The translations under genes were made by a program, and so were the position numbers. The notes below the pieces were generated by a model that was not told where the DNA came from, ran no database searches, and worked only from the letters and a program-made list of their open reading frames with translations. Source: Crocinitomix sp. (GTDB taxonomy: Bacteria; Bacteroidota; Bacteroidia; Flavobacteriales_D; Crocinitomicaceae). Taken from it: 64,000 nt of DNA. The stretch lies in assembly GCA_013138735.1 (NCBI GenBank), contig WTCE01000107.1, forward strand, positions 1,771 to 65,770, written 5' to 3'. Shown piece after piece: positions 1 to 48,979 of the stretch; within the stretch, counting starts at the first letter, position 1; each line of letters begins with the position of its first letter.

Positions 1-609
1 TCCTGCCGCATATTTCCAATCGTTTCCTTCTGGGTAAAGTAAATCTAAGGGATAAGGAATTAAATAATCTTTCAATAACATGGAACTATCAATCTGCCAA
101 TCTTTTCCATCTCCTGTAAACATTTGAAATTTCTCGTTATTCGTAATCGTTGGCATTATTACGTTTAACTTTTCGTTGTATTTAATACCTAAAGAACCCG
201 TTTCATTTATGGCATCTATATAAATCATTCCGTTAGACTTCAGTAAGTCTCCATTAGAGGTTGTACTTAGTTCTGAAGTGATCATATCAGTTAATGTAAA
301 GACTTCCACTAATTCGATCTCAACCGTACCTTGCACTTCCTGCCCATTTCTATCAATAAAACAATTGGCTGGAATAAATATTTCAGTACCATTTGTGCCA
401 GCAATGACATTACTTGTTTTCGTATCGATTTGGAAGTATTGTTTTTGCTGACCAATTTCCTGATAGGTTGAAGTGAGCGGTGTTTCAACAGTGACTTGTC
501 TGTCTGTAATATTCTCATCAGAAGTAAACTGCTCTTTATCTTTCTCACAACTAGAGAGAAAAATAAGACACAAACTAAAAAGGAAATAAGAAAGATAGGG
601 AGATTTCAT
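1..609 (-). CDS. Putative lipoprotein, partial (runs off window start); not in ORF track
   Basis: Manual translation from ATG at 609 gives MKSPYLSYFLFSLCLIFLSSCEKDKEQF..., with lipobox LSSC and no stop to position 1. Confidence 0.8.
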   Translation of the reverse strand, partial: MKSPYLSYFLFSLCLIFLSSCEKDKEQFTSDENITDRQVTVETPLTSTYQEIGQQKQYFQIDTKTSNVIAGTNGTEIFIPANCFIDRNGQEVQGTVEIELVEVFTLTDMITSELSTTSNGDLLKSNGMIYIDAINETGSLGIKYNEKLNVIMPTITNNEKFQMFTGDGKDWQIDSSMLLKDYLIPYPLDLLYPEGNDWKYAAG

Positions 610-722: not shown

Positions 723-825
723 TCAAACAAAGAAATCAAATCAGGGAACCACCCCCTCTTATCCAATACCTCGCTGTTCAGATAATTTAAACCAAACAAT
801 GCTGAACAGAAAGTATTTTATCTTA

Positions 826-1815
826 CTAGAACGACGGGCAAGAAATCGTTCTAAATCTTTTTGGTTTGTCTTTACAAGACAAGTTAAATCCTAATGACAA
901 TTCATGCGACCCGCCCGAAGCATTTGTCAAAGGAGAAATTGTAATATCATAACTATAGCCGAACTTAAATGAACCGGCATCAATTCCTACTGAAAGGATA
1001 AATGCATCTCTTGGTCTCCACCAAGCTCCTGCTGTAAATGCTCCGTATTTAATATAGGTTCCAACGTTTAGTTGCATGAACCCATCTTGGTACGTATAAA
1101 TAACGTTAGGTGAGATTGAAGTTACATTAGAATACTGCGAACCTTTTCCAAATTCAATATTGGCTCCAACATGTCCTGTAAATCGCATTGGCAAATTACT
1201 TTCCCCATCAGGATTCAATATTAAACTCTCTTCTGGTGTATTTAAGTGCTTTGCAGCAAAACCAAAGTAAAAGTTCTCTGAATATCCTACAATTCCTGCA
1301 TTAATATCAAAAAATCCTTTTGTTCCCCAGTTTCCACCATCACCCCAAAAGTTACCACGAGGCAAATCTCCAGTTTGGTAAATAAATCCTCTTCTTGGAT
1401 CAATTTGATCGCCAAAGGTTAATTTACTCCAATCTAAAAACTTTTGATTCCATCCTGCTTGAGCACCAAATAAAAGGGTAAACTTTCTTGAAACTTGTAA
1501 GTGATAAGAATAAGCCAAATTGATTGTTGTCCAATTGAGCGTATTCTTGCCAGCCATATCGTTTGTTACAGAAAGTGCCACACCACCTTGAAGTACGTTT
1601 ACAAATTGGTCATACGAGACACTATTTGTTACAAATGCGCCAGATATATTGGCCCATTGATTCCGATAATTCATATTTACGCGTGGACAACCATGCGTCC
1701 CTGCCATTGCCGGATTCAAATAAATCGGATTGGCATAGAACTGTGTAAACTCAGGATCTTGTGAAAATCCGTTGAGCGACGCCAGAGCAATTAATAAAGT
1801 AAGTATTCTCTTCAT
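826..1815 (-). CDS. PorP/SprF family type IX secretion system outer-membrane protein
   Basis: Signal peptide then QDPEFTQFYANPIYLNPAMAG...YRNQW; C-terminal GYSYD...GGSHELSLGF motifs. Confidence 0.92.
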   Translation of the reverse strand: MKRILTLLIALASLNGFSQDPEFTQFYANPIYLNPAMAGTHGCPRVNMNYRNQWANISGAFVTNSVSYDQFVNVLQGGVALSVTNDMAGKNTLNWTTINLAYSYHLQVSRKFTLLFGAQAGWNQKFLDWSKLTFGDQIDPRRGFIYQTGDLPRGNFWGDGGNWGTKGFFDINAGIVGYSENFYFGFAAKHLNTPEESLILNPDGESNLPMRFTGHVGANIEFGKGSQYSNVTSISPNVIYTYQDGFMQLNVGTYIKYGAFTAGAWWRPRDAFILSVGIDAGSFKFGYSYDITISPLTNASGGSHELSLGFNLSCKDKPKRFRTISCPSF

Positions 1816-1824
1816 ATATTCTAT

Positions 1825-3540
1825 TTATTTGAAACGTGCATTTTTAGTTTTTCCATTAAAACGAATTCCCAAGTTATGTGAACCAATTTGCTCGTTATTG
1901 AGCAATGTTGTAGTTCTATCATACTGATAAATCATCTTAAAGTTTTTAAATTTCATACCTATTGCGGCAGTAAAGTCATTATTCGTTGAGTATGAACCTC
2001 CTATGGTGAAGTGATTTATTCTAAAATTCGCTCCAGCCCATGCTTCTTGTGATTCTCCAAAATGTCTTGCAGCAATAAATGGACTTATGGACATATTCTT
2101 ATTTGCTGATTCATAATCTGCTCCAATTACGCCACTGTAAAGAACGGATGTTCTAATTGGTTCATTACTTCCTTCTTCACGATAAACGCTTGCATAGTGA
2201 CGGCCAATATTGTCTGCACTTAAACCAGCATAAAACCATTTCGTATTTAGCACAAATCCTAAACCATAATCTTTATACCATAATTTATCGGTTTGTTCAT
2301 TGTCAGATGCAAAACTAGAGTTTAATAACATCCCTCTGTCCAATTCAAAACTCATTCCTTCTTCCAATTTGGAAGAATTTCCGGTTAGTACACCAAGTGA
2401 AACTTTAATCCCTGGTTCAAGTACCGCGTTTGGTCCTAAACTAATTTTAGGTGAATAAGTCATATCAACAGAATAATCTCCAAATGCTCCATTTCCATAT
2501 GTTGCAGAATTTACTGAAACTCCAAATCCACCTCTTACTTGATGAACGTAGTTATCAAAGCTAAATTGCGTTTTTTGTGCATTCATTTCAGATCCTAACC
2601 ATTGGTTTCTATAACTCAATTCAAATCTAGGCATTAGCATTCCACCTGCAAACCCAGGATTGGATGAAACCAATGAATTTTCTGGCAATAATAATTCAGG
2701 ATCTCTTAGATTAACTAAACCAACAGGATAACCGAACATGCGTTCAATTTTTCTGTAAATTCGTTTTGTTACATTGCCAAAAGAGTTCAAATTAACGTTA
2801 TTCTTTTTTCTCAAATCTATTTCGGAATGCCCTTCTGTTGGGTTATGCGCATATTTAGAGGAATGATTGTCCGACTTGTATTTTGCTTGTTCTTGCTTCA
2901 TGGCAGCATTTACAGTTACATAATAGTCAGCATCATTAAAATCATCCTCTTCAGCTGCATTCGAATTTGTTGCACCTAAATTATCAGTTGCTCCATTCAA
3001 ATCCTCTTCTCCATTTCCGTTACTCACGCCACTATAAGTTTCATTTGTTAAACTCGTTACAGCAATTTGATTTTGATATTGTGCGGCAGTCGTATAATTA
3101 GTTGTTTCGTTTGTGTTATTTCCGTTCTCGGAAACAATTGAATTATTATTTGAAGTAGCGTCGTTCGCTTTATTATTCTCAGAAAGGTAATTAGAAGAAG
3201 TTTCGTTGTAAGCTTTAGAAAACTGAGCGAATTGCGTATCAGCGGTATTATTACTAGTGGCATTGATGGCAAAATAACCACCTACACCTATTAATACAAC
3301 TAAAGCTGCAGCTGCGCTCCAACCGAACCAGCCGGCAAATTTTCTGTTACGTTCTAAACTACTTTGTTGTGGATAAACTACAGTATCAATGGGGATAATT
3401 GAATTTTGCCAAGCATCTGCGGCTGGTTCAAAACCAGGGTTTTGCAATAGAAATTGCTCGAACGCATTAACTTCAGTTGGCGAGAGGTTGCCCTCCATGT
3501 AGTCGAACATCCACCTGTCGAAATTTTCAGGAATATTCAT
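1825..3540 (-). CDS. Anti-sigma-like N-terminus + TM helix + low-complexity linker fused to a C-terminal PorP/SprF beta-barrel
   Basis: N-terminal DYMEGNLSPTEVNAFEQFL helix; TM WSAAAALVVLIGVGGYFAI; N/T/S/E-rich tract; then NPGFAGG...YRNQW...GSHNLGIRF; ATGA overlap with the ECF sigma gene. Confidence 0.85.
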   Translation of the reverse strand: MNIPENFDRWMFDYMEGNLSPTEVNAFEQFLLQNPGFEPAADAWQNSIIPIDTVVYPQQSSLERNRKFAGWFGWSAAAALVVLIGVGGYFAINATSNNTADTQFAQFSKAYNETSSNYLSENNKANDATSNNNSIVSENGNNTNETTNYTTAAQYQNQIAVTSLTNETYSGVSNGNGEEDLNGATDNLGATNSNAAEEDDFNDADYYVTVNAAMKQEQAKYKSDNHSSKYAHNPTEGHSEIDLRKKNNVNLNSFGNVTKRIYRKIERMFGYPVGLVNLRDPELLLPENSLVSSNPGFAGGMLMPRFELSYRNQWLGSEMNAQKTQFSFDNYVHQVRGGFGVSVNSATYGNGAFGDYSVDMTYSPKISLGPNAVLEPGIKVSLGVLTGNSSKLEEGMSFELDRGMLLNSSFASDNEQTDKLWYKDYGLGFVLNTKWFYAGLSADNIGRHYASVYREEGSNEPIRTSVLYSGVIGADYESANKNMSISPFIAARHFGESQEAWAGANFRINHFTIGGSYSTNNDFTAAIGMKFKNFKMIYQYDRTTTLLNNEQIGSHNLGIRFNGKTKNARFK

Positions 3541-4025
3541 ACGAGTATTGTTAGATCTTTTAACTGTTTTTTAATTTTATTTCGGGCTCTAAATAAATAG
3601 ACTTTTACTTGAGCTTCACTTAGCTCGAGTATTTCGCCTATTTCCTGATACGTATAACCTTCTAAATCGCGCAGAAGAATAATTGATTTTTGAAGTGGCG
3701 GAAGTTTAGCTAAACTTTTTTCTATAATTTCCTTCATTTCAAAATCCCGAGAGTGGCACACAGCAGTGTCAGATGATACCGTATTTGCTTGGTATGTAAT
3801 CCGACTATTTTTCTTGATGAGGTTTATTAATGCATTGTGTGCACAAGTAAACAACCAAGATTTTGCCTTCTCAGTAACAATTTTTTTTCTGTTTTTCCAT
3901 AATTTTTCAAAAACATCTTGAACAATATCGTTTGCGTCTTCGGTATTTTTTAAATACTTCAAAGAGTAGCCATACAACCTTCCGGAGTATTCTTTAACAG
4001 CGATATTGTATTCTTTTCTCGTCAA
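3537..4025 (-). CDS. ECF-type RNA polymerase sigma factor
   Basis: Region 2 (DANDIVQDVFEKLW...KSWLF) and region 4 (LRDLEGYTYQEIGEILELSEAQVKVYLFRAR); TTG start. Confidence 0.93.
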   Translation of the reverse strand: MTRKEYNIAVKEYSGRLYGYSLKYLKNTEDANDIVQDVFEKLWKNRKKIVTEKAKSWLFTCAHNALINLIKKNSRITYQANTVSSDTAVCHSRDFEMKEIIEKSLAKLPPLQKSIILLRDLEGYTYQEIGEILELSEAQVKVYLFRARNKIKKQLKDLTILV

Positions 4026-4071
4026 ATTAGGGCGTGGTTAAATCAGGTAAAGTTCCCTTTCAAACAGTTAA

Positions 4072-4098
4072 AACAATCTAAATACCCAAAAAGTTACA
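4072..4098 (-). promoter_or_regulatory. Candidate ECF autoregulatory promoter TGTAAC-N17-TGTT
   Basis: AAC-type -35 and GT-type -10 with a 17-nt spacer, about 50 nt upstream of the ECF start. Confidence 0.35.
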
Positions 4099-4255
4099 TG
4101 CACTTTAAAGTTTTTAGTGATTATTTTTTCTCCAAGTTACAAAATTATTACCACGTGTCCGATTAATAAAGGAATTTTAGTATCTTTCAAAACAAAGAAA
4201 AATTATTAATGTCTGCTTGGAAATAGACATTTAAATCATAAAGAACTCGAAATAG

Positions 4256-10430: not shown

Positions 10431-12095
10431 ATGCATTTGTCAAACTTATTAAAAGCACGCATAACTATTCTACTATTTTTATGCTCATCTATTGGATGGA
10501 ATCAAAGTACTCAATGTGAAACATTGGAGAATGCCATTCGCTCAGATCAACATATTATAACGCTAGATATTCGCAATTGTGAGTTGGAAGAAATTCCAGC
10601 CGAATTGAAGTCCTTAGTAGATTTAAAATCGGTTAATTTGGATGGCAATATTATTCGATATATCACCTTTGAAAACGTACCTCTAATTGAATCAATATCA
10701 CTCAAAGAGAATGGTGCTGTTAGTTTGCATCAGTCAATCAGCACAATGGCCTTTCTCCGATATTTACACCTTGATTATAATCGCATAACCAAAATTCCAG
10801 GAAGTATTAAAGGAGCTTCAGAATTAAGAACATTAACGCTAGGTTCCAACCTTTTAAAGGATATACCAAGTAGTATTGGTGCTTTGGCCAAGTTGGACAC
10901 CTTAGATTTAAAATCGAATCAATTAACAAACATTAAACCGTGGATTGAGAACTTAAACGAATTGGATTATTTGCACTTAGCCGCTAACGAATTGGTTGAA
11001 ATTGCTCCAGAATTATGGGGATTAGAACAACTAAACTATTTAAATTTAAGTGAAAACCAATTGAACGCTGAAGGGCTCAATATAACTGAAGGTTCTTCCA
11101 CGTTAGAATACTTGCATTTAGAAGTCAATGATTTGGTTGCCTTCCCAATGGGCATTAATAATTGTACGGCGTTAAAATACTTGAATATTTCTTCTAATCA
11201 AGTGCGATCAATTCCGAGTTCACTTAATGGTTTAAAAAAACTAGAAACGCTCATTTTAAAATGGAATTTATTGGAAGACTTGCCTATTCCAATTGGAGAT
11301 CTAGCTGCGCTGCAAAATTTAGAGATAGATCATAACGCAATTAAAACATTGGGAGATGCCTTGAGCGGTTTGAATAACTTAACTGTTTTGAAAGCCAACG
11401 ATAATTTAATTTCTGAAATCCCGGAATCCGTGCTTCAATTAAAGTCACTCAAAAAACTTCAAATTGCTGGAAACTTATTGAAGAGTTTGCCCAATAATTG
11501 GTCAAAAATGACGGCATTAGAATTTTTAGATGCCTCCAGAAATAATCTGGATTCAATACCTACAAACCTCTTAAGTTTAACAGGATTGATATCATTGAAT
11601 TTACGTAATAACACCATTGAAACTATTCCAACTCAGGTTAAAAACTTGGCCCGATTGAAGGAATTAGATTTAGGGGAAAATAGCATTGAAATTTTACCAA
11701 TTGAATTAGCCGAATTAAAAAATCTAACCTCGCTCAAATTAGATGGAAACTTGATTCAAAAAATTGATCCCTTAATTATGTCTTTAAAAGGATTAACGAG
11801 TCTTGAATTGGACGGGAATTTGATTAAAAAACTTCCAAAAAATTTGGGCGAATTATCCAATTTAAAATACCTCAGCATTAATGGTAATCAGCTCAAAAAA
11901 CTACCTGAATCAATCGGCGATTTATCGAATTTAATTTACCTAAGTGTAGAAGCCAATTTGCTAAAAAAATTACCGGAAACAATTCAAAATTTAAAGAATT
12001 TGAAATACCTTTCTATCTCGAAAAACCTAATGGATTTTGAGGAGCAAAAGAAGATCAAAGCATGGCTTCCTGAGGGTTGTGTAATTTTAATGTAG
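10431..12095 (+). CDS. Exported leucine-rich repeat protein
   Basis: Signal peptide; roughly 20 LxxLxLxxNxLxxLP repeats; C-cap KIKAWLPEGC. Confidence 0.92.
   Translation: MHLSNLLKARITILLFLCSSIGWNQSTQCETLENAIRSDQHIITLDIRNCELEEIPAELKSLVDLKSVNLDGNIIRYITFENVPLIESISLKENGAVSLHQSISTMAFLRYLHLDYNRITKIPGSIKGASELRTLTLGSNLLKDIPSSIGALAKLDTLDLKSNQLTNIKPWIENLNELDYLHLAANELVEIAPELWGLEQLNYLNLSENQLNAEGLNITEGSSTLEYLHLEVNDLVAFPMGINNCTALKYLNISSNQVRSIPSSLNGLKKLETLILKWNLLEDLPIPIGDLAALQNLEIDHNAIKTLGDALSGLNNLTVLKANDNLISEIPESVLQLKSLKKLQIAGNLLKSLPNNWSKMTALEFLDASRNNLDSIPTNLLSLTGLISLNLRNNTIETIPTQVKNLARLKELDLGENSIEILPIELAELKNLTSLKLDGNLIQKIDPLIMSLKGLTSLELDGNLIKKLPKNLGELSNLKYLSINGNQLKKLPESIGDLSNLIYLSVEANLLKKLPETIQNLKNLKYLSISKNLMDFEEQKKIKAWLPEGCVILM
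11500..11539 (+). repeat. 40-bp direct repeat, copy 1 (inside the LRR gene)
   Basis: GGTCAAAAATGACGGCATTAGAATTTTTAGATGCCTCCAG; 39/40 identical to 13286-13325. Confidence 0.9.
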
Positions 12096-12141
12096 AAAAA
12101 AAAGCGTAAGAATTGTACAAACGATCCCCTATTCTCTCACT

Positions 12142-13161
12142 TTATTCAATTTCCAGTTCAAGTTCTATTTTCCTTCTTACTTTGAGTATGGTTTGTTCAA
12201 TGTTGCCAAAAAACCGATTCCGTTCTTTAGCGTTAGCCTGAGAAATCAAACAGGAATTATTCGTGAATTGATCTAAGATTAATTTAGTTTCTTTTGTGTA
12301 ATGAGGGTCAGCAGTGGTCAGGTAATTCATGATGTTATGCGAGAAATAGACAGCCGAACCTCCATTCCATTCGAAAAAATAGGTATTATCATAAATATAA
12401 GTATCATTAGAATACATTTGAAATTCATTTCCGGATGTAACGGGTTCATTATTGAGTGCAAATTTCCGACCTACTTCAGCCTGTTTTTTCATGTGCATCA
12501 ATAACTTAATTAGATCATCTAATAACTTCAAGGCATAATGTGGATCTTCAAATAATCGTGCATCAAAATAATATAGAATTTGTCTTAATGTCCCTCGAAG
12601 GCTTTCAGGAGAATATATTTCAGTGGAAGGAATAGAATTGTACAAATTGTGCGCTTCAATACTGATTTGAAGCACCTCATTATCAATCTTTTCATTTGCA
12701 AACTTTAGACTATCAAATTCTGGAATTTTCAGGTAAGTCTTGGCCCAAAAAAAGAACTTGAATCTCGTTAAATCTGGCAAGTTAAACAACTGAAAAATAG
12801 GTGTATCATTGACACTAGCAAGTAATCGAGGATCCTCTAAATTCTTAATTCGTCTCAAATCTTCTCGCATTCCAATGAGGTAGGATTTAAAGTTAACTTG
12901 ACGTCTATCTAAAGGATTGTAGGTAAATTCAACTCTACCCTTTTCTATGTTTCCAAAAACGTTAAAGTCTATTTTGAAATTTTGGCAGAGCCTTCTAGTT
13001 TCACTTAATGTGAGTTCAACTTTGCCCCTGAGCCTTCTGTATGCTGCGTCTTGTGAAACATAGAGCGTATCCATTAATACCTGAACTAAACTGTCGTCAT
13101 TTGGCAGCTGCATCTTAATACTGTCAAAGATTCTTTTTTGAACTTCATACTCTTCTTCCAT
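12142..13161 (-). CDS. Putative transcription regulator with N-terminal HTH
   Basis: SLVQVLMDTLYVSQDAAYRRLRGKVELTLSE resembles an HTH; remainder unassigned. Confidence 0.6.
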   Translation of the reverse strand: MEEEYEVQKRIFDSIKMQLPNDDSLVQVLMDTLYVSQDAAYRRLRGKVELTLSETRRLCQNFKIDFNVFGNIEKGRVEFTYNPLDRRQVNFKSYLIGMREDLRRIKNLEDPRLLASVNDTPIFQLFNLPDLTRFKFFFWAKTYLKIPEFDSLKFANEKIDNEVLQISIEAHNLYNSIPSTEIYSPESLRGTLRQILYYFDARLFEDPHYALKLLDDLIKLLMHMKKQAEVGRKFALNNEPVTSGNEFQMYSNDTYIYDNTYFFEWNGGSAVYFSHNIMNYLTTADPHYTKETKLILDQFTNNSCLISQANAKERNRFFGNIEQTILKVRRKIELELEIE

Positions 13162-13200
13162 TATTCAATGTAAGCATTTTTAGTTAATAGTCTGAATGAC

Positions 13201-13222
13201 AGAAGGATTTGGCAATCCTTCT
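13201..13222. repeat. Intergenic palindrome
   Basis: AGAAGGATT-TGGC-AATCCTTCT perfect 9-bp stem. Confidence 0.6.
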
Positions 13223-13285
13223 ATCTGCAATTCAAAGCTCTATCCGATTAATTGAAGGGATATTGAATGAGCAACGCTTGTCGAA

Positions 13286-13325
13286 GGTCAAAAATGACGG
13301 CATTAGAATTTTTAGATGCTTCCAG
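13286..13325 (+). repeat. 40-bp direct repeat, copy 2 (intergenic), abutting a REP-like GCTTGTCGAAGG
   Basis: 39/40 match to 11500-11539. Confidence 0.9.
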
Positions 13326-13360
13326 TCCAAAACTAATGACTAGAAACTAGTGACGATTGC

Positions 13361-13780
13361 CTACTTCAACCTTCTTGCTAAAATTCGATTTCCAGTAATC
13401 TCAGTAGACCACATGTCGGATGGAAAAACTTTGGGTAAAAATCGTGCGTAGAGTTTAGTTCTTTGGGAGGTATGTTCGCCTTGGTCATCCTCTCTTAGAA
13501 TTCCTGTAAACTCAACAATTTGCATATTTGGATGCTCCCTTAAATACATGCGAATTACTTCTGCAATTGTTGTCATTACGCGCAAAGCATCTCCCTTATT
13601 GGTCACAACATACTCTTCGCCTTCATACTCATCATTTAAAACGCCAAAAACTACAACAGAATGTAAAATATTCTCTTTTTTGCGTCCAAAACGAACCTCA
13701 TACTCCACATCATAGGGAGTAGTGAACTGGTATACCTGTCCAGATGGAATTGCAGGGGCTATTATGTGATAAGGATTCAT
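13361..13780 (-). CDS. Hypothetical protein (139 aa) coupled to the caspase gene
   Basis: ORF track; its ATG directly abuts the upstream TAA. Confidence 0.8.
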   Translation of the reverse strand: MNPYHIIAPAIPSGQVYQFTTPYDVEYEVRFGRKKENILHSVVVFGVLNDEYEGEEYVVTNKGDALRVMTTIAEVIRMYLREHPNMQIVEFTGILREDDQGEHTSQRTKLYARFLPKVFPSDMWSTEITGNRILARRLK

Positions 13781-16700
13781 TTATTTCCCGAATATAATAT
13801 AATCCATGATAATATTTTCCTCTCTTGCTGTTGGGGTTTGCTTTTCATTGGATAATTTTTTAACTTCACGGTTAACATAAGTTCGAATTTGGGACAAATA
13901 CACACTGCCTGTATCCGTTTGACTTAAACCCTGAATAAATACATATGTAAAAAGCCCATTACTCCATTGGTCGCTTTCCATTGCGTATTCGGCACCTCCA
14001 GCACTTGAAATAACTGTTGCTCCGGTGCCTTTGCTAATGTCCTCAAACAAACTTTCGGTAAGCTTTCTAGAATTGTCTAATCCAACACCATCCTTTTTTC
14101 GAATATTTGTTGCGACTCCCCTAAATTGCACATCTCCCTGTTCCACTTCTGGATTCTGCCCTTCTTCAACATCATCCTCATCTAATTCACCCGAATGGCA
14201 AGTATCCATAATTAACAACTTTTGATAGGCCTTGACTTTATCCAATATTCCTGAAATTTGCGTGTATGGAATCCCTCTTTCATCTGGTGAATCAAAATCC
14301 ATATCATAGGATCCATAAAAATAATCGTAGTCCACATTTAGCACACCATGCCCTGCTATAAAAATAATGGCAAAATCTTCATGCGTGCAGGTGCTAAAAA
14401 ATTCCACTAAGCTTTGAATACCTTCTTTTGTAACAGCCTCATTTACGAGCAATTTTGAATGTACTTCATTATAGCGTTCCTTTCCTTTTTCTTCATTGAA
14501 CTTTTTTAAAACATCCTCAGCATCTTTTGTCGGATACTTCAAGTTAAACCGGTCGTCTTTGTAATTTGAAACGCCAATTGCTGCAATATATAAGTCGTGC
14601 TTTTCTAATTCTGAATCGCGGATAATCTCAAAACCTTCATATAGAGATTCTACACCATTAGAGTTCATGCAATAAATTATTATCTTATTTTTATTATTCA
14701 CAAGTGGAATTTCTATCTCCTTTCTAATCGATTTTATATTGCCATCAATGGCTAGACCTTGTCCCCCATAAATAGGAACATTATTAACGTAAACATGCAA
14801 ACTCCTCAAGTTATAGTCATCATCCCAAGCACTAATCCACACTTTTTGTGAAGGTTCTGTCGTGATAAGATCATGTTTAGTTTCAATTTTAATCGTTGGT
14901 AAATTAAAATCCATGTTCAATGAACCTTCGTCTAAGTTTAGTTTCTTTAATCTTTTTTTATAGAGATAATAATAAAGATTAATCAATTGCTCAGAGGTTT
15001 TACCAATGCGCTTACCAACAATGTCTGGTCGATTAAGGTGTACATGAAATTGATCAAAGGGCACTAATTTATCCCCCATCCTAAACGCTATTCCTTGCAA
15101 AGCACTTCTTGAGGCCATGTAATAATTATCTGGCGTATAAATCATGAATTCTTTGTCTCCAATTGCTTGATAAGTTGCTATCAGTTCGCAAGTTTTATAA
15201 TCAAAATACTTAACCGCACCATCTCTAGAGGCTGAGAAGAACCGATTATTTAGAGGATCGCAAATAACTTTAATAAGTTCACCTATATGATCTTCAAATC
15301 GACAAGTGCTTTTCCCTGTTTTAGTATCCCAAACTATTACTGAATTATCCGTTTCGCTAACCGTACTGCTGCCTCCACCAGATATTAGTACAGTTCCATC
15401 CGCCGAATAATCAATTGTGTTAACAATGTTAAGATGTCCCACTAAAATATGGTCCAAACTCCAATCACTTGTACTGCGTAAATAAATCGTTTTATCCCAC
15501 GCGGCGGTGGCCAAATGATTTCCATCTGGACTAAACTTTACATCATGAATCGAAATGGTTTGTTCGTCAAATTTTACCACTTCTTTTTTAGTTTCGTAAT
15601 TCCAAACCCTTGCTGTTTGATCTAAGGATCCAGAAACTACCCAAGGTTTTGTTGGATGAAAGTCTAAGCCCAATATTCCACCTTCATGCCCTTCTAATTC
15701 AGCAACCATTTTAGTCGACTCAATATCCCAAACTTTAACTTTGTTTTGATATCCTGCGCCTGTAAGCTTTTTTCCATCATTAGAAACGGCAACCGTTTGA
15801 ATGAGTTCGTAACCTGTATCAAAGGTTTTTATTTTTTTTCCTGTTTCAACATCAAATAAACCCAAGTTGATTTGATTGGTCATTGCCACTATTGACTTTC
15901 CATCTGGTGTAAACTCACAGGGGAAAAATCCTGGCACACTTCTAACCACTCTATTTAAAGTTAAATCCCAAATTTTCAACTCTAATTCATCACGGGGTGC
16001 TACAGCCAAATAATGCCCTGTGGGATCATACGCCATATTTTCTATACGTTTGATACGTGAATCAAACTCCTTAAGAATTTGCTTTCTCTTATAATCATAG
16101 AACGTAATTAAATCATGATTGGCCAAAACAACTATTTCGCCATTTGGATGAGATTGGACACATTGCGTGTTAAATACGCTGTTTGCAATCACCTCTTTAT
16201 CAACTACTTTTTTTGTTTGATAATTAAATATTATCACATCTCCAGCGTGCGTGGAAACATAAACAATTGGCTCAATACGATCGATTGCCAAACTCACTAA
16301 TTTAGTATCATACGCTCTCGACTCAAATTCAAATTCGCCTTTTTCTGTATTGAAAATTCGCAATTTATCGTCATTGAAACCGTAGGCTATATATTTACCA
16401 TCAGCTGAGATGTCCGAATTACAAACTAGCGGATTAAATTTGTCAAACAATTGATATGTCTCTTCTGTTGCTCCACTCGACATGTTGATTTTACGCATAG
16501 CTCCCAAATGATCGAGTGAATAAATCATTCCCCTCTCTACATCTGCAATAAAATACGTTACAGGACTTTCAGTTAATACGGTCGTTGTTTTTGATATTAA
16601 ATCATAGACAGAAATTTGCGTATCGTCATTGATGAAGAAGAGCTTGTTTCCATCTTTAGAAAAGTTCAAACCGTTACCTGAACCTGCAATACCACTATGA

Positions 16701-48145: not shown

Positions 48146-48979
48146 ATGCGAAACTTAATTCAATTCTTAAAGAAATTTAGAACTTTTTTAGTCTTCTTCG
48201 TTCTGCAAGTCTTTGTATTAACGCTTTTTTTTAACAGTAAAGATTACCACCGCTCAAAAATGACCAATACCTCTTCTAGTATTATTGGTTGGTTCGTCGA
48301 AAAGAAACATAACATTGATAAACACTTTAGTTTGTCTGAAGCCAATGAACGCTTAATGGATCATAATGCGGCACTTTTATCGCAGCAGCCCAACAGCTTT
48401 TATGTATTACAAGGCGACACCTATTATGTTAACGACACCCTAAAGAAAGAACAATTTAAATATATTCCAGCAACGGTCATTAACTCCTCCAGTACCAGAC
48501 GTGATAATTATTTTACACTAAATAAAGGAGCGGCACAAGGAATAGAAATTGGCATGGGCGTAATTGCTGATGATGGTGTTATTGGCATTGTGACAGACGT
48601 CTCTAATCATTACGCCATTGTGATGACTATATTAACCGAGAAATCGAACATTAATGTCAAACTACTTAAGAATAATGAATATTGGTTTTTGACCTGGGAT
48701 GGTAAAGACAATGCATACGCACAGATTGATGCTGTCAAACGAGATATTTCTATTGAAATTGGCGATCATGTGGTAACCCGTGGCGGTGGCACTCAGTTTC
48801 CCGAAGGAATTGCTGTTGGAACTATAGCAGAAGTTTTATCAAAAGATGGTGAACAAACCATTGGCTTAAACATAAAATTAGATGTGAATTATAATGCGGT
48901 TTATCATGTTTACGTGGTAAAAAACTTGATGCGAAACGAACAGTTAGAATTGGAGCAAGGCTATTTTGGAGATGAATAA
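48146..48979 (+). CDS. mreC: Rod shape-determining protein MreC
   Basis: N-terminal TM, coiled coil, TLNKG...GIEIGMGVI..GVIGIV, FPEGIAVG; synteny. Confidence 0.95.
   Translation: MRNLIQFLKKFRTFLVFFVLQVFVLTLFFNSKDYHRSKMTNTSSSIIGWFVEKKHNIDKHFSLSEANERLMDHNAALLSQQPNSFYVLQGDTYYVNDTLKKEQFKYIPATVINSSSTRRDNYFTLNKGAAQGIEIGMGVIADDGVIGIVTDVSNHYAIVMTILTEKSNINVKLLKNNEYWFLTWDGKDNAYAQIDAVKRDISIEIGDHVVTRGGGTQFPEGIAVGTIAEVLSKDGEQTIGLNIKLDVNYNAVYHVYVVKNLMRNEQLELEQGYFGDE

What the first reader, a model, noticed from the sequence alone, without database searches (positions are those of the whole stretch)
1825..4025. ECF sigma factor paired with an anti-sigma-like protein whose C-terminus is a PorP/SprF T9SS barrel
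Seen: the ECF gene overlaps the next gene by ATGA. That protein has a ~70-aa N-terminal domain, one TM helix, ~140 aa of N/T/S/E-rich low complexity and then a domain that aligns by eye with the neighbouring PorP/SprF protein (NPGFAGG..YRNQW vs NPAMAG..YRNQW; GSHNLGIRF vs GGSHELSLGF). Established: the dual-membrane-spanning anti-sigma factors (Dma) of Bacteroides thetaiotaomicron have this cytoplasmic domain-TM-disordered tether-OM barrel layout, and PorP/SprF proteins are T9SS OM barrels. Inference: this is a Dma-like regulator whose sensor is a T9SS component, which could report T9SS or cargo status to transcription. I am not aware of this fusion being described.
Basis: partly seen in the sequence, partly recalled or inferred. 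Interest (0 to 1): 0.85.

Follow-up and report, generated by a model that had tools for sequence, protein, structure and literature searches.

The report
Anti-sigma factor fused to PorP barrel
A gliding marine/freshwater bacterium (family Crocinitomicaceae) carries a conserved three-gene operon whose sigma-factor inhibitor is one long protein, predicted to reach from the inner membrane to an outer-membrane barrel of the type IX secretion PorP/SprF family; this is an unpublished variant of the two-membrane "Dma" regulators found in gut Bacteroides in 2024.

Summary
On the minus strand an ECF sigma gene (4025..3537) overlaps by ATGA a 571-aa gene (3540..1825). That gene encodes a three-helix N-terminal domain, one TM helix, a roughly 110-aa disordered N/S/T-rich tether, two conserved periplasmic helices and a full 14-strand PorP/SprF barrel. 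A stand-alone PorP/SprF gene follows (1815..826).

The fusion is real. It is full-length in 36 of 61 sampled Crocinitomicaceae genomes (18 of 29 genera), including cultured strains. I did not find it in other families.

The N-terminal domain belongs to a large Bacteroidota family that always lies just downstream of an ECF sigma gene, so it is an anti-sigma domain.

New here:
- An invariant promoter, TGTAAC-N16-TTGT, precedes the sigma gene in 33 loci. It also precedes a conserved array of ~125-aa lipoprotein genes, but only in genomes that have the fusion.
- Barrel-less paralogues use TGTAAC-N16-CGTC.
- The downstream PorP is a spare copy of the gldJ-linked core PorP.

The architecture works like Dma, but the protein is not a Dma-family member: the barrel and the sigma group both differ. 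That it senses T9SS or cargo status is unproven. I rate it a new variant of a known kind, of moderately high interest.

The parts
4071..4098 (-). Predicted sigma-dependent (autoregulatory) promoter TGTAAC-N16-TTGTTT; the -10-like element ends 45 nt before the TTG start
   Evidence: Only match in the window, 0.05 expected. Same motif at fixed spacing upstream of the sigma gene in 33 related loci, down to 28% protein identity. Homologous position to TGTAAC-N16-CGTC upstream of the barrel-less paralogous sigma genes.
4116..4141 (-). Second, upstream ECF-like element TGTAAC-N16-CACT (TGTAAC/CGTAAC-N15-CGTT in most relatives)
   Evidence: Conserved in the Crocinitomix-clade upstream regions. Resembles the CGT-type promoters of the paralogous systems. 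Function not tested.
3537..4025 (-). ECF sigma factor, 162 aa, TTG start, GFO_1088/PG0214 family
   Evidence: Pfam Sigma70_r2/r4_2; NF058625 132.7 bits against cut-off 130. TTG start conserved in all loci.
3391..3540 (-). Fusion aa 1-50: cytoplasmic anti-sigma domain (three helices). It is the most conserved part of the protein (mean column identity 0.72)
   Evidence: AF2 helices 4-16, 21-33 and 35-47; pLDDT 82 when modelled alone. Conservation. Profile hits lie downstream of ECF sigma genes. The ATGA overlap points to translational coupling.
3262..3336 (-). Fusion aa 69-93: single TM helix with the N-terminus inside (RNRKF before it); conserved W-S-A-A-A
   Evidence: Hydropathy peak; AF2 helix 69-93; alignment.
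2932..3261 (-). Fusion aa 94-203: disordered N/S/T-rich periplasmic tether. Sequence is not conserved (0.19), but length is constrained: TM end to barrel motif is 152-203 aa
   Evidence: pLDDT below 50; composition; length and conservation statistics.
2671..2931 (-). Fusion aa 204-290: conserved periplasmic segment with two helices (204-222, 254-268; YRKIE.M.GYP...NLRDPEL)
   Evidence: Alignment invariants K220, N233, P234, N277, L278, D280; AF2.
1825..2670 (-). Fusion aa 291-571 plus stop: 14-strand PorP/SprF-type outer-membrane barrel
   Evidence: PF11751 E 9e-30; TIGR03519 110.5 bits against cut-off 90.55. AF2 pLDDT about 90. Foldseek matches FadL, OmpG and PorV barrels. Fused barrels form one clade with 100/100 support.
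826..1815 (-). Stand-alone PorP/SprF, 329 aa: a spare copy of the slow-evolving core PorP type that elsewhere sits next to gldJ and porV
   Evidence: PF11751 E 2e-62. Synteny conserved. Tree and paralogue context. Two copies in most fusion-positive genomes checked and one in fusion-negative genomes.
743..757 (-). Terminator-like stem-loop about 70 nt after the PorP stop; probable operon end
   Evidence: Consensus scan. The count is not above chance and only the position is suggestive.

Best explanation
This is a sigma/anti-sigma switch whose anti-sigma factor is covalently tied to an outer-membrane barrel. The ECF sigma (162 aa) is made together with the 571-aa protein and held by that protein's cytoplasmic three-helix N-terminal domain. 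One TM helix anchors the protein in the inner membrane with its N-terminus inside. A disordered tether plus two conserved helices (152-203 aa in all) crosses the periplasm. The C-terminal 280 aa fold as a 14-strand PorP/SprF-type barrel in the outer membrane. When the barrel end is disturbed, the tether is probably cut, for example by failed assembly, loss of a partner such as the core PorP or gliding/T9SS complex, or outer-membrane damage. The TM helix is then probably cleaved by the RseP-type site-2 protease, and the sigma is freed. The free sigma reads TGTAAC-N16-TTGT promoters. These precede its own operon, so more sigma, more anti-sigma and a spare core-type PorP are made, and they precede an array of small, probably periplasm-facing lipoproteins. 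Shown here: the domain architecture, conservation of the fusion, anti-sigma family membership by context, the promoter motif and its co-occurrence with the fusion. Inferred: sigma binding, the two-membrane topology, the signal, and the proteolytic release.
For: Architecture. Real, conserved fusion with sigma-fusion-PorP synteny. Anti-sigma identity: the N-terminal profile hits 43 of 401 Bacteroidota genomes, and the partner gene is always directly downstream of an ECF sigma gene. 21 of 29 upstream ORFs BLASTP-match this sigma, 12 of them at 39-49% identity. There are 5105 representative proteins at E<=1e-3; those with a single copy of the domain and 545-658 aa are PorP fusions, and those with 2-6 repeats lack a barrel. 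The ASD is the most conserved region (0.72) and the tether the least (0.19), yet tether length is kept at 152-203 aa. Promoter: fixed spacing in 33 loci; it occupies the same place as TGTAAC-N16-CGTC of the paralogues. Regulon: the same motif lies upstream of homologous ~125-aa lipoprotein genes in several genera and in this genome at G000:C134:47745. It is present at 17 of 23 lipoprotein loci in fusion-positive genomes and 0 of 7 in fusion-negative ones (Fisher p 8e-4), with 0 of 30 on the opposite strand. An intact M50 site-2 protease is present. Precedent for the topology: Dma1 was shown experimentally to span both membranes, and its first 40 aa bind Das1 (PMC10927553).
Against: There is no direct evidence of sigma binding; AlphaFold-Multimer was not available. 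The N-terminal domain has no significant match to solved anti-sigma structures. The profile search against PDB gave 0 hits. Foldseek gave E>3, although 4 of its 10 listed chains are anti-sigma factors in sigma complexes. Pfam zf-HC2 is not hit by this protein. Six of 23 lipoprotein loci in fusion-positive genomes lack the strict motif, and the genomes are related, so the Fisher test overstates independence. No T9SS core gene carries the motif in this genome, so a T9SS-specific role is not indicated by the output side.
Confidence: 0.6

Rival explanations
1. The fusion is a synthesis or assembly device only. The barrel is cut from the anti-sigma part as soon as it is assembled, so the mature cell holds an ordinary inner-membrane anti-sigma factor and a free PorP-like barrel, and no signal passes between the membranes.
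For: Dma1 itself yields C-terminal fragments, and in stationary phase no full-length protein is seen (PMC10927553). The tether sequence is unconserved.
Against: Tether length is constrained to 152-203 aa, and the fusion has been kept across 18 genera down to 28% identity. If only co-expression were needed, separate genes would serve, as in the split paralogue.
Confidence: 0.15
2. The barrel is a passive anchor or docking module, not the sensor. It places the anti-sigma factor next to the gliding/T9SS machinery, and the signal is read by the conserved periplasmic helices (aa 204-290) or by the adjacent core-type PorP.
For: The segment aa 204-290 is conserved with several invariant residues. The operon always carries a core-type PorP. 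Barrel-less paralogues end in a short conserved peptide and are followed by a separate OMP_b-brl_2 barrel, which suggests peptide-barrel contacts.
Against: The fused barrels sit on a long branch but are well conserved among themselves (0.60 mean column identity), which argues for more than anchoring.
Confidence: 0.15
3. The N-terminal extension is only a signal-anchor for an odd PorP paralogue and has nothing to do with the sigma factor; the adjacency is coincidental.
For: No curated anti-sigma HMM passes its threshold (NF052375 scores 20 bits against cut-off 100).
Against: The ATGA overlap; invariant sigma adjacency in every locus; the domain family lies downstream of ECF sigma genes across the phylum; the N-terminal 50 aa are the best-conserved part of the protein.
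Confidence: 0.03
4. Assembly or frameshift artefact that joins an anti-sigma gene to a porP gene.
For: None found.
Against: Full-length, stop-free frames occur in dozens of independent assemblies, including complete genomes and isolates.
Confidence: 0.01

Closest known systems
Dma family: Dma1/Das1 and Dma2/Das2 of Bacteroides thetaiotaomicron, Reo/EcfO of B. fragilis (PMC10927553; bioRxiv 10.1101/2025.09.27.678952)
   Same: Encoded next to an ECF sigma gene; short cytoplasmic N-terminal sigma-binding region; one TM helix; long disordered periplasmic linker; C-terminal OM beta-barrel in the same polypeptide; restricted to Bacteroidota; the regulon includes small lipoproteins (NigD1/2 there, an unrelated ~125-aa Ig-like lipoprotein here).
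   Different: The barrel has 14 strands and is PorP/SprF (PF11751), not the eight-stranded OMP_b-brl_2. The sigma is of the GFO_1088/PG0214 type, not ECF21. The N-terminal domain belongs to a different, repeat-forming family. The operon carries a second PorP. Distribution is one family (Crocinitomicaceae), whereas Dma1 is found in almost all Bacteroidota. This genome also has a separate Dma1-like gene (G000:C49:12179-13627).
Barrel-less paralogous system: GFO_1088/PG0214-type sigma, multi-repeat anti-sigma and a separate OMP_b-brl_2 barrel gene (own genome C134:11909-14444; probably the PG0214-PG0218 cluster of P. gingivalis, PMC11018363)
   Same: Homologous sigma (39-49% identity) and homologous anti-sigma N-terminal domain. 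Same TGTAAC -35 element and spacing. Inner-membrane anchor followed by a low-complexity periplasmic region. An OM barrel is encoded in the operon.
   Different: The anti-sigma has 2-6 copies of the domain and ends in a short conserved peptide instead of a barrel. The barrel is a separate gene of another family. The -10 element is CGTC, not TTGT. The content of the PG0214-18 cluster was not examined here.
PorA - PorXY - SigP signalling of the P. gingivalis T9SS (PMC7712824, PMC12152298)
   Same: T9SS status is relayed to an ECF sigma factor, and T9SS components are among the outputs.
   Different: That relay runs through a two-component system and a cargo CTD that binds PorY in the periplasm. 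SigP has no anti-sigma factor and nothing is fused to PorP.
Cell-surface signalling FecA-FecR-FecI (from established knowledge; reviewed in PMC9249621)
   Same: An OM barrel controls an inner-membrane anti-sigma factor and an ECF sigma across the periplasm, with release by regulated proteolysis.
   Different: There the barrel (a TonB-dependent transducer) and the anti-sigma factor are separate proteins that touch through a signalling domain. Here they form one chain, and no TonB box or plug is present.
PorP/SprF proteins (P. gingivalis PorP, F. johnsoniae SprF)
   Same: Same barrel family by HMM, and full-length alignment with the neighbouring PorP.
   Different: No cleavable signal peptide; a 290-aa N-terminal extension; no adjacent type-B CTD cargo gene; a long-branch, separate clade.

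Membership tests
[quoted passage not shown] 2024) | Gene adjacent to and co-oriented with an ECF sigma gene, with a short cytoplasmic N-terminal region | tested here: met
   ATGA overlap with the sigma gene; conserved in all loci.
[quoted passage not shown] 2024) | Single TM helix followed by a long intrinsically disordered linker | tested here: met
   Hydropathy and AF2: TM helix 69-93, pLDDT below 50 for aa 95-207.
[quoted passage not shown] 2024) | C-terminal eight-stranded OMP_b-brl_2 barrel | tested here: not met
   The barrel is PF11751/TIGR03519 with 14 predicted strands and has no PF13568 hit.
[quoted passage not shown] 2024) | Cognate sigma of the ECF21 group | tested here: inconclusive
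   The best model is NF058625 (GFO_1088/PG0214). The sigma of the genome's Dma1-like pair scores only 80.8 bits on that model and best on TIGR02985. No ECF21 model was on hand.
[quoted passage not shown] 2024) | Experimentally shown to bind sigma and to sit in both membranes | not testable with these tools
   Needs pull-down and fractionation experiments.
PorP/SprF (PF11751, TIGR03519) | HMM score above the curated cut-offs over the whole barrel | tested here: met
   104.6 bits (cut-off 22.3) and 110.5 bits (cut-off 90.55), profile positions 17-273 of 273.
PorP/SprF (PF11751, TIGR03519) | Stand-alone protein of about 300-360 aa with a cleavable signal peptide | tested here: not met
   571 aa with an N-terminal cytoplasmic domain and a TM anchor. 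The other 21 PF11751 hits in the genome lie in frames of 300-361 aa.
PorP/SprF (PF11751, TIGR03519) | Encoded next to a type-B CTD cargo gene (the SprB-SprF pattern) | tested here: not met
   The neighbours are the sigma gene and another PorP. The downstream 554-aa lipoprotein has no family and is not syntenic.
PorP/SprF (PF11751, TIGR03519) | Functional part of the T9SS | not testable with these tools
   Needs genetics or interaction data.
GFO_1088/PG0214 ECF sigma family (NF058625) | Score above the equivalog cut-off | tested here: met
   132.7 bits against 130, only just above. The barrel-less paralogue's sigma scores 123 bits.
Class I anti-sigma domain (ASD; zf-HC2 / RsiW, RslA, ChrR type) | Sequence or fold match to a known ASD | tested here: inconclusive
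   No Pfam zf-HC2 hit for this protein; relatives hit it sub-threshold at E 0.001-0.009. The profile search against PDB gave 0 hits. Foldseek E>3, but ChrR, RslA (twice) and RsiW are among its 10 listed chains.

The most novel reading that the evidence does not exclude
The fused barrel is a PorP that docks into the gliding/T9SS outer-membrane complex (the GldJ/GldK-PorP neighbourhood), so the sigma factor reads out whether that machine is assembled or loaded. Its output would be a spare core PorP plus small periplasmic lipoproteins that repair or remodel the machine. This would be a direct, single-polypeptide feedback line from a secretion and motility apparatus to RNA polymerase.
Probability: 0.2. 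Interest if true: 0.8.

Novelty: new variant of a known kind. Interest (0 to 1): 0.62.

Why it matters
Dma-type regulators, described in 2024, are the only known anti-sigma factors that physically span both membranes. Only one barrel type and one sigma group are known for them, all from gut Bacteroides.

This locus shows the same design built independently. A different anti-sigma family, normally barrel-less and partnered with a separate barrel gene, has been joined to a barrel of the type IX secretion/gliding family. Tethering an inner-membrane regulator to an OM barrel would then be a recurrent solution in Bacteroidota rather than a one-off.

The system also comes with a testable wiring diagram:
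- a sharply defined promoter, TGTAAC-N16-TTGT;
- a small conserved regulon;
- a paralogue with a different -10 element in the same cell, which gives a natural specificity pair;
- cultured hosts: Crocinitomix catalasitica ATCC 23190, C. algicola and Paracrocinitomix mangrovi.

If the barrel does dock to the T9SS, this would be the first direct regulatory line from that machine to transcription outside Porphyromonas.

Tried and rejected
1. Artefact hypothesis: rejected by the homologue and genome surveys.

2. Fusion widespread across Bacteroidota: not seen.
- The N-terminal profile against 401 phylum genomes found no PorP-bearing partner outside the family.
- A PF11751 scan of 151 phylum genomes showed long frames only in another family. 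These proved to be PorP barrels with normal signal peptides and C-terminal TSP3-like extensions, not anti-sigma fusions. That scan scored at most 15 hits per genome and its list was cut, so weak barrels could have been missed.

3. Full 35-nt PWM scan of the genome: over-fitted to flanking conservation, so only the own site scored high. I replaced it with core-motif regex scans and cross-genome comparison.

4. OMP_b-brl_2 gene C84:27026-27793 as a regulon member: it has a perfect motif 25 nt upstream of the gene, but the gene is found in only 8 of 61 family genomes. It is at best a lineage-specific target.

5. Fold or sequence match of the N-terminal domain to solved anti-sigma factors: nothing significant.

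6. Pfam and NCBIfam on the lipoproteins and on the 554-aa downstream lipoprotein: no family.

7. Names for divergent fusions through cluster look-up: none carried a name.

9. A sigma-ASD complex model: not possible, because only single window-encoded chains can be folded.
Full report
**What is there.**

The window is C79:1771-65770 of a 6.84-Mb, 188-contig genome. Homologue names place it in Crocinitomix, family Crocinitomicaceae. On the minus strand lie three genes:
- an ECF sigma gene, 4025..3537 (162 aa, TTG start);
- a 571-aa gene, 3540..1825;
- a 329-aa gene, 1815..826.

The first two overlap by ATGA...CTC GTA TGA read against ATG AAT ATT. A terminator-like hairpin at 757..743 follows the third gene. 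A 554-aa lipoprotein gene comes next, at 609 and running off the window end (C79:715-2379). It has no family and is not syntenic in relatives. The conserved unit is therefore three genes.

**Domains.**

- The sigma has Sigma70_r2 and r4_2. It just passes the NCBIfam equivalog NF058625, the GFO_1088/PG0214 family (132.7 bits against a cut-off of 130).
- The 329-aa protein is an ordinary PorP/SprF (PF11751, E 2e-62).
- Aa 291-561 of the 571-aa protein match PF11751 (E 9e-30) and TIGR03519 above their cut-offs. This region aligns along its whole length with the neighbouring PorP (27% identity, E 7e-21).
- There is one hydrophobic segment at about aa 69-93, with RNRKF on its N-terminal side. By the positive-inside rule the N-terminus is cytoplasmic.
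- The next 140 residues are 19% N, 13% A, 12% T and 11% S.

AlphaFold2 on a 40-sequence alignment gives:
- three helices (aa 4-16, 21-33, 35-47; pLDDT 73-87);
- the TM helix;
- pLDDT below 50 for aa 95-207;
- two helices (aa 204-222, 254-268);
- 14 strands over aa 305-562 at pLDDT about 90.

Foldseek matches the barrel to FadL, OmpG and PorV chains of T9SS structures (6h3i_F, 8gl6_F). This confirms an OM barrel fold, though not a specific one.

**The fusion is real and confined to one family.**

- 190 homologues were found, more than 100 of them full length at 35-88% identity. All named ones are Crocinitomicaceae, and all are annotated only as 'PorP/SprF family'.
- 36 genome loci were recovered, including C. 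catalasitica ATCC 23190, C. algicola and Brumimicrobium at 28-30% identity.
- The order sigma-fusion-PorP holds in the complete Paracrocinitomix mangrovi genome, in Putridiphycobacter and in more divergent members.
- In an even sample of the family, 36 of 61 genomes and 18 of 29 genera carry it.
- This genome has 22 PF11751 hits, and only this one sits in a long frame.
- I found no such fusion outside the family. The N-terminal profile against 401 phylum genomes found no PorP-bearing partner. The long PorP frames in another family are signal-peptide PorPs with C-terminal TSP3-like extensions.

**The N-terminal domain is an anti-sigma domain.**

- A profile of aa 1-95 hits 43 of 401 Bacteroidota genomes. 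In every locus examined the hit begins a gene directly downstream of an ECF-sigma-sized ORF.
- 21 of 29 such upstream ORFs BLASTP-match the window's sigma, 12 of them at 39-49% identity.
- Against 1.84 billion representative proteins the profile finds 5105 proteins at E<=1e-3, in two architectures.
  - A single copy at the N-terminus of 545-658-aa proteins. 14 of 17 of these have a PorP barrel by a tuned HMM, and the other three end in PorP-like C-terminal motifs.
  - Two to six tandem copies in 340-650-aa proteins with a late TM helix and no barrel.
- Within the fusion family the first 50 residues are the most conserved part (0.72). The tether is the least conserved (0.19), yet the distance from the TM helix to the barrel motif is held at 152-203 residues.
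- A direct fold or sequence match to solved anti-sigma factors was not obtained. Foldseek gave E>3, although ChrR, RslA (two chains) and RsiW, all solved in sigma complexes, are 4 of its 10 listed chains.

**Evolutionary setting.**

The same genome holds two relatives of this design.
- A split system at C134: a sigma (13956-14444), a 346-aa anti-sigma with two copies of the domain (12905-13945), and a separate OMP_b-brl_2 barrel (11909-12724). The same trio occurs in other Bacteroidota families. Family members that lack the fusion carry only this barrel-less type of anti-sigma.
- A classical Dma1-like protein at C49:12179-13627. It has 482 aa, with an N-terminal domain, a TM helix, a low-complexity linker and an OMP_b-brl_2 barrel, and its own sigma gene.

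The PorP fusion is thus a third, independent way of coupling an anti-sigma factor to an OM barrel. It derives from the GFO_1088-type pair, not from Dma1.

In a tree of PorP barrels the fused barrels form one clade (100/100) on a long stem. That clade is sister, with modest support (89/80), to the clade of the operon's stand-alone PorP. The stand-alone clade evolves slowly. It includes a copy at C71:103600-104592 that lies beside gldJ (TIGR03524, 460.8 bits against cut-off 458.2) and two porV genes. Of the seven fusion-positive genomes checked, five have two copies of this core-type PorP, one has three and one has only the operon copy. The five fusion-negative genomes checked have one copy each.

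**Promoter and regulon (new here).**

- Upstream of the sigma gene, all 33 loci share TGTAAC-N16-TTGT(TTTA) at fixed spacing, even at 28% protein identity. In the window it lies at 4098..4071, as the only match, with 0.05 expected.
- The barrel-less paralogues have TGTAAC-N16-CGTC in the same position. The two systems therefore share the -35 element and differ at -10, which is the pattern expected for insulated paralogous ECF sigmas.
- Scanning 25 family genomes for the motif recovered the sigma promoters. It also repeatedly recovered sites upstream of a homologous ~125-aa lipoprotein gene.
- This genome has two tandem copies of that gene (C134:47932-48306 and 48429-48818). They are preceded at C134:47745 by TGTAACTTTT...AACTGTTA, the second-best PWM hit in the genome.
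- The lipoprotein is present in 58 of 61 family genomes.
- The motif lies upstream of the lipoprotein gene at 17 of 23 loci in fusion-positive genomes and 0 of 7 in fusion-negative ones (Fisher p 8e-4). It occurs on the opposite strand at 0 of 30 loci. The genomes are related, so the p-value overstates independence.
- The lipoprotein has no family; weak hits are to Ig-like and CarboxypepD_reg folds. Basic residues follow its lipobox Cys, so by my own knowledge of the Bacteroidota lipoprotein export signal it probably faces the periplasm.
- No T9SS core gene in this genome carries the motif.

**Most likely mechanism.**

The sigma is held at the inner membrane by the N-terminal domain. The chain crosses the periplasm and ends in an OM barrel. 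Disturbance at the barrel end leads to cleavage of the tether. Intramembrane cleavage follows, by the RseP homologue present at C57. The conserved W-S-A-A-A in the TM helix is a plausible cleavage site and Ala-rich degron, by analogy with RseA (inference from memory). The freed sigma activates its own operon, including the spare core-type PorP, and the lipoprotein array.

Confidence by step:
- Sigma/anti-sigma pair with a covalently attached PorP-type barrel: about 0.85.
- The two-membrane topology: about 0.65.
- Release by proteolysis on barrel perturbation: about 0.4.
- A T9SS-specific signal: about 0.2.

**Comparison with what is known.**

Functionally this looks like a Dma. It fails two defining features of that family: the eight-stranded OMP_b-brl_2 barrel, and probably the ECF21 sigma (PMC10927553).

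Papers holding 'anti-sigma' together with PorP or SprF, and both Dma papers, do not mention such a fusion.

There is precedent for T9SS-to-ECF signalling:
- PorA-PorXY-SigP in P. gingivalis (PMC7712824, PMC12152298);
- an ECF-type promoter on T9SS genes in F. psychrophilum (PMC9723704).

Both use different wiring.

Earlier agents of this scan saw the same three-gene operon in other genomes and reached the same architectural reading. Those notes are not independent evidence. I re-derived the architecture here and added the promoter, the regulon, the paralogy and the distribution.

**Verdict.**

This is a new variant of a known kind. Interest is moderately high because it is unpublished, mechanistically explicit and testable in cultured strains.

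Noticed in passing
window 4116-4141 (-): A second ECF-like element about 40 nt upstream of the main promoter: TGTAAC-N16-CACT here, and TGTAAC/CGTAAC-N15-CGTT in most Crocinitomix-clade relatives. It resembles the CGT-type promoters of the barrel-less paralogous sigma genes, so the paralogous sigma might also drive this operon as a cascade.
   Followed up: partly
window 1-609 (-), continuing to C79:715: A 554-aa lipoprotein gene (lipobox LSSC) directly downstream of the operon. It has no Pfam or NCBIfam family and is not found at this position in relatives.
   Followed up: partly
G000:C134:11909-14444 (outside the window): A split paralogous system: a GFO_1088-type sigma, a 346-aa anti-sigma with two copies of the N-terminal domain and a conserved C-terminal peptide (YGFKLGKFEFERKK), then a separate OMP_b-brl_2 barrel. 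The same trio is widespread in other Bacteroidota families and may itself form a non-covalent two-membrane complex.
   Followed up: partly
G000:C49:12179-14228 (outside the window): A classical Dma1-like pair: a 199-aa ECF sigma and a 482-aa protein made of an N-terminal domain, TM helix, low-complexity linker and OMP_b-brl_2 barrel. Three different sigma-to-OM-barrel designs therefore coexist in one genome.
   Followed up: partly
G000:C84:26973-27793 (outside the window): A perfect TGTAACTTTT-N12-TTGTTTTA site 25 nt upstream of a 255-aa OMP_b-brl_2 gene. The gene is found in only 8 of 61 family genomes, so it is possibly a lineage-specific regulon member.
   Followed up: partly
G000:C84:28998-29858 (outside the window): A 286-aa Peptidase_M50-like ORF (66 bits). 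By eye, the position of the HExxH motif reads YNLSM, so it may be an inactive RseP-like protein. An intact 431-aa M50 protease lies at C57:12631-13857.
   Followed up: no
L170-L172 (G071:C25, G067:C53, G067:C54): In another Bacteroidota family, PorP/SprF barrels with normal signal peptides carry C-terminal extensions with thrombospondin-type-3-like Asp-rich repeats (frames of 594-629 aa). Each lies downstream of type-B-CTD-like cargo genes. These are a different kind of PorP fusion.
   Followed up: no
whole genome G000: The assembly is 6.84 Mb, while three genomes of the same genus are 3.3-3.7 Mb. It holds three copies of the core-type PorP (C79, C71, C98), and the C79 and C71 copies are nearly identical in the tree. 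Contamination is given as 0.71%, so this may be real expansion, but a mixed assembly was not excluded.
   Followed up: no
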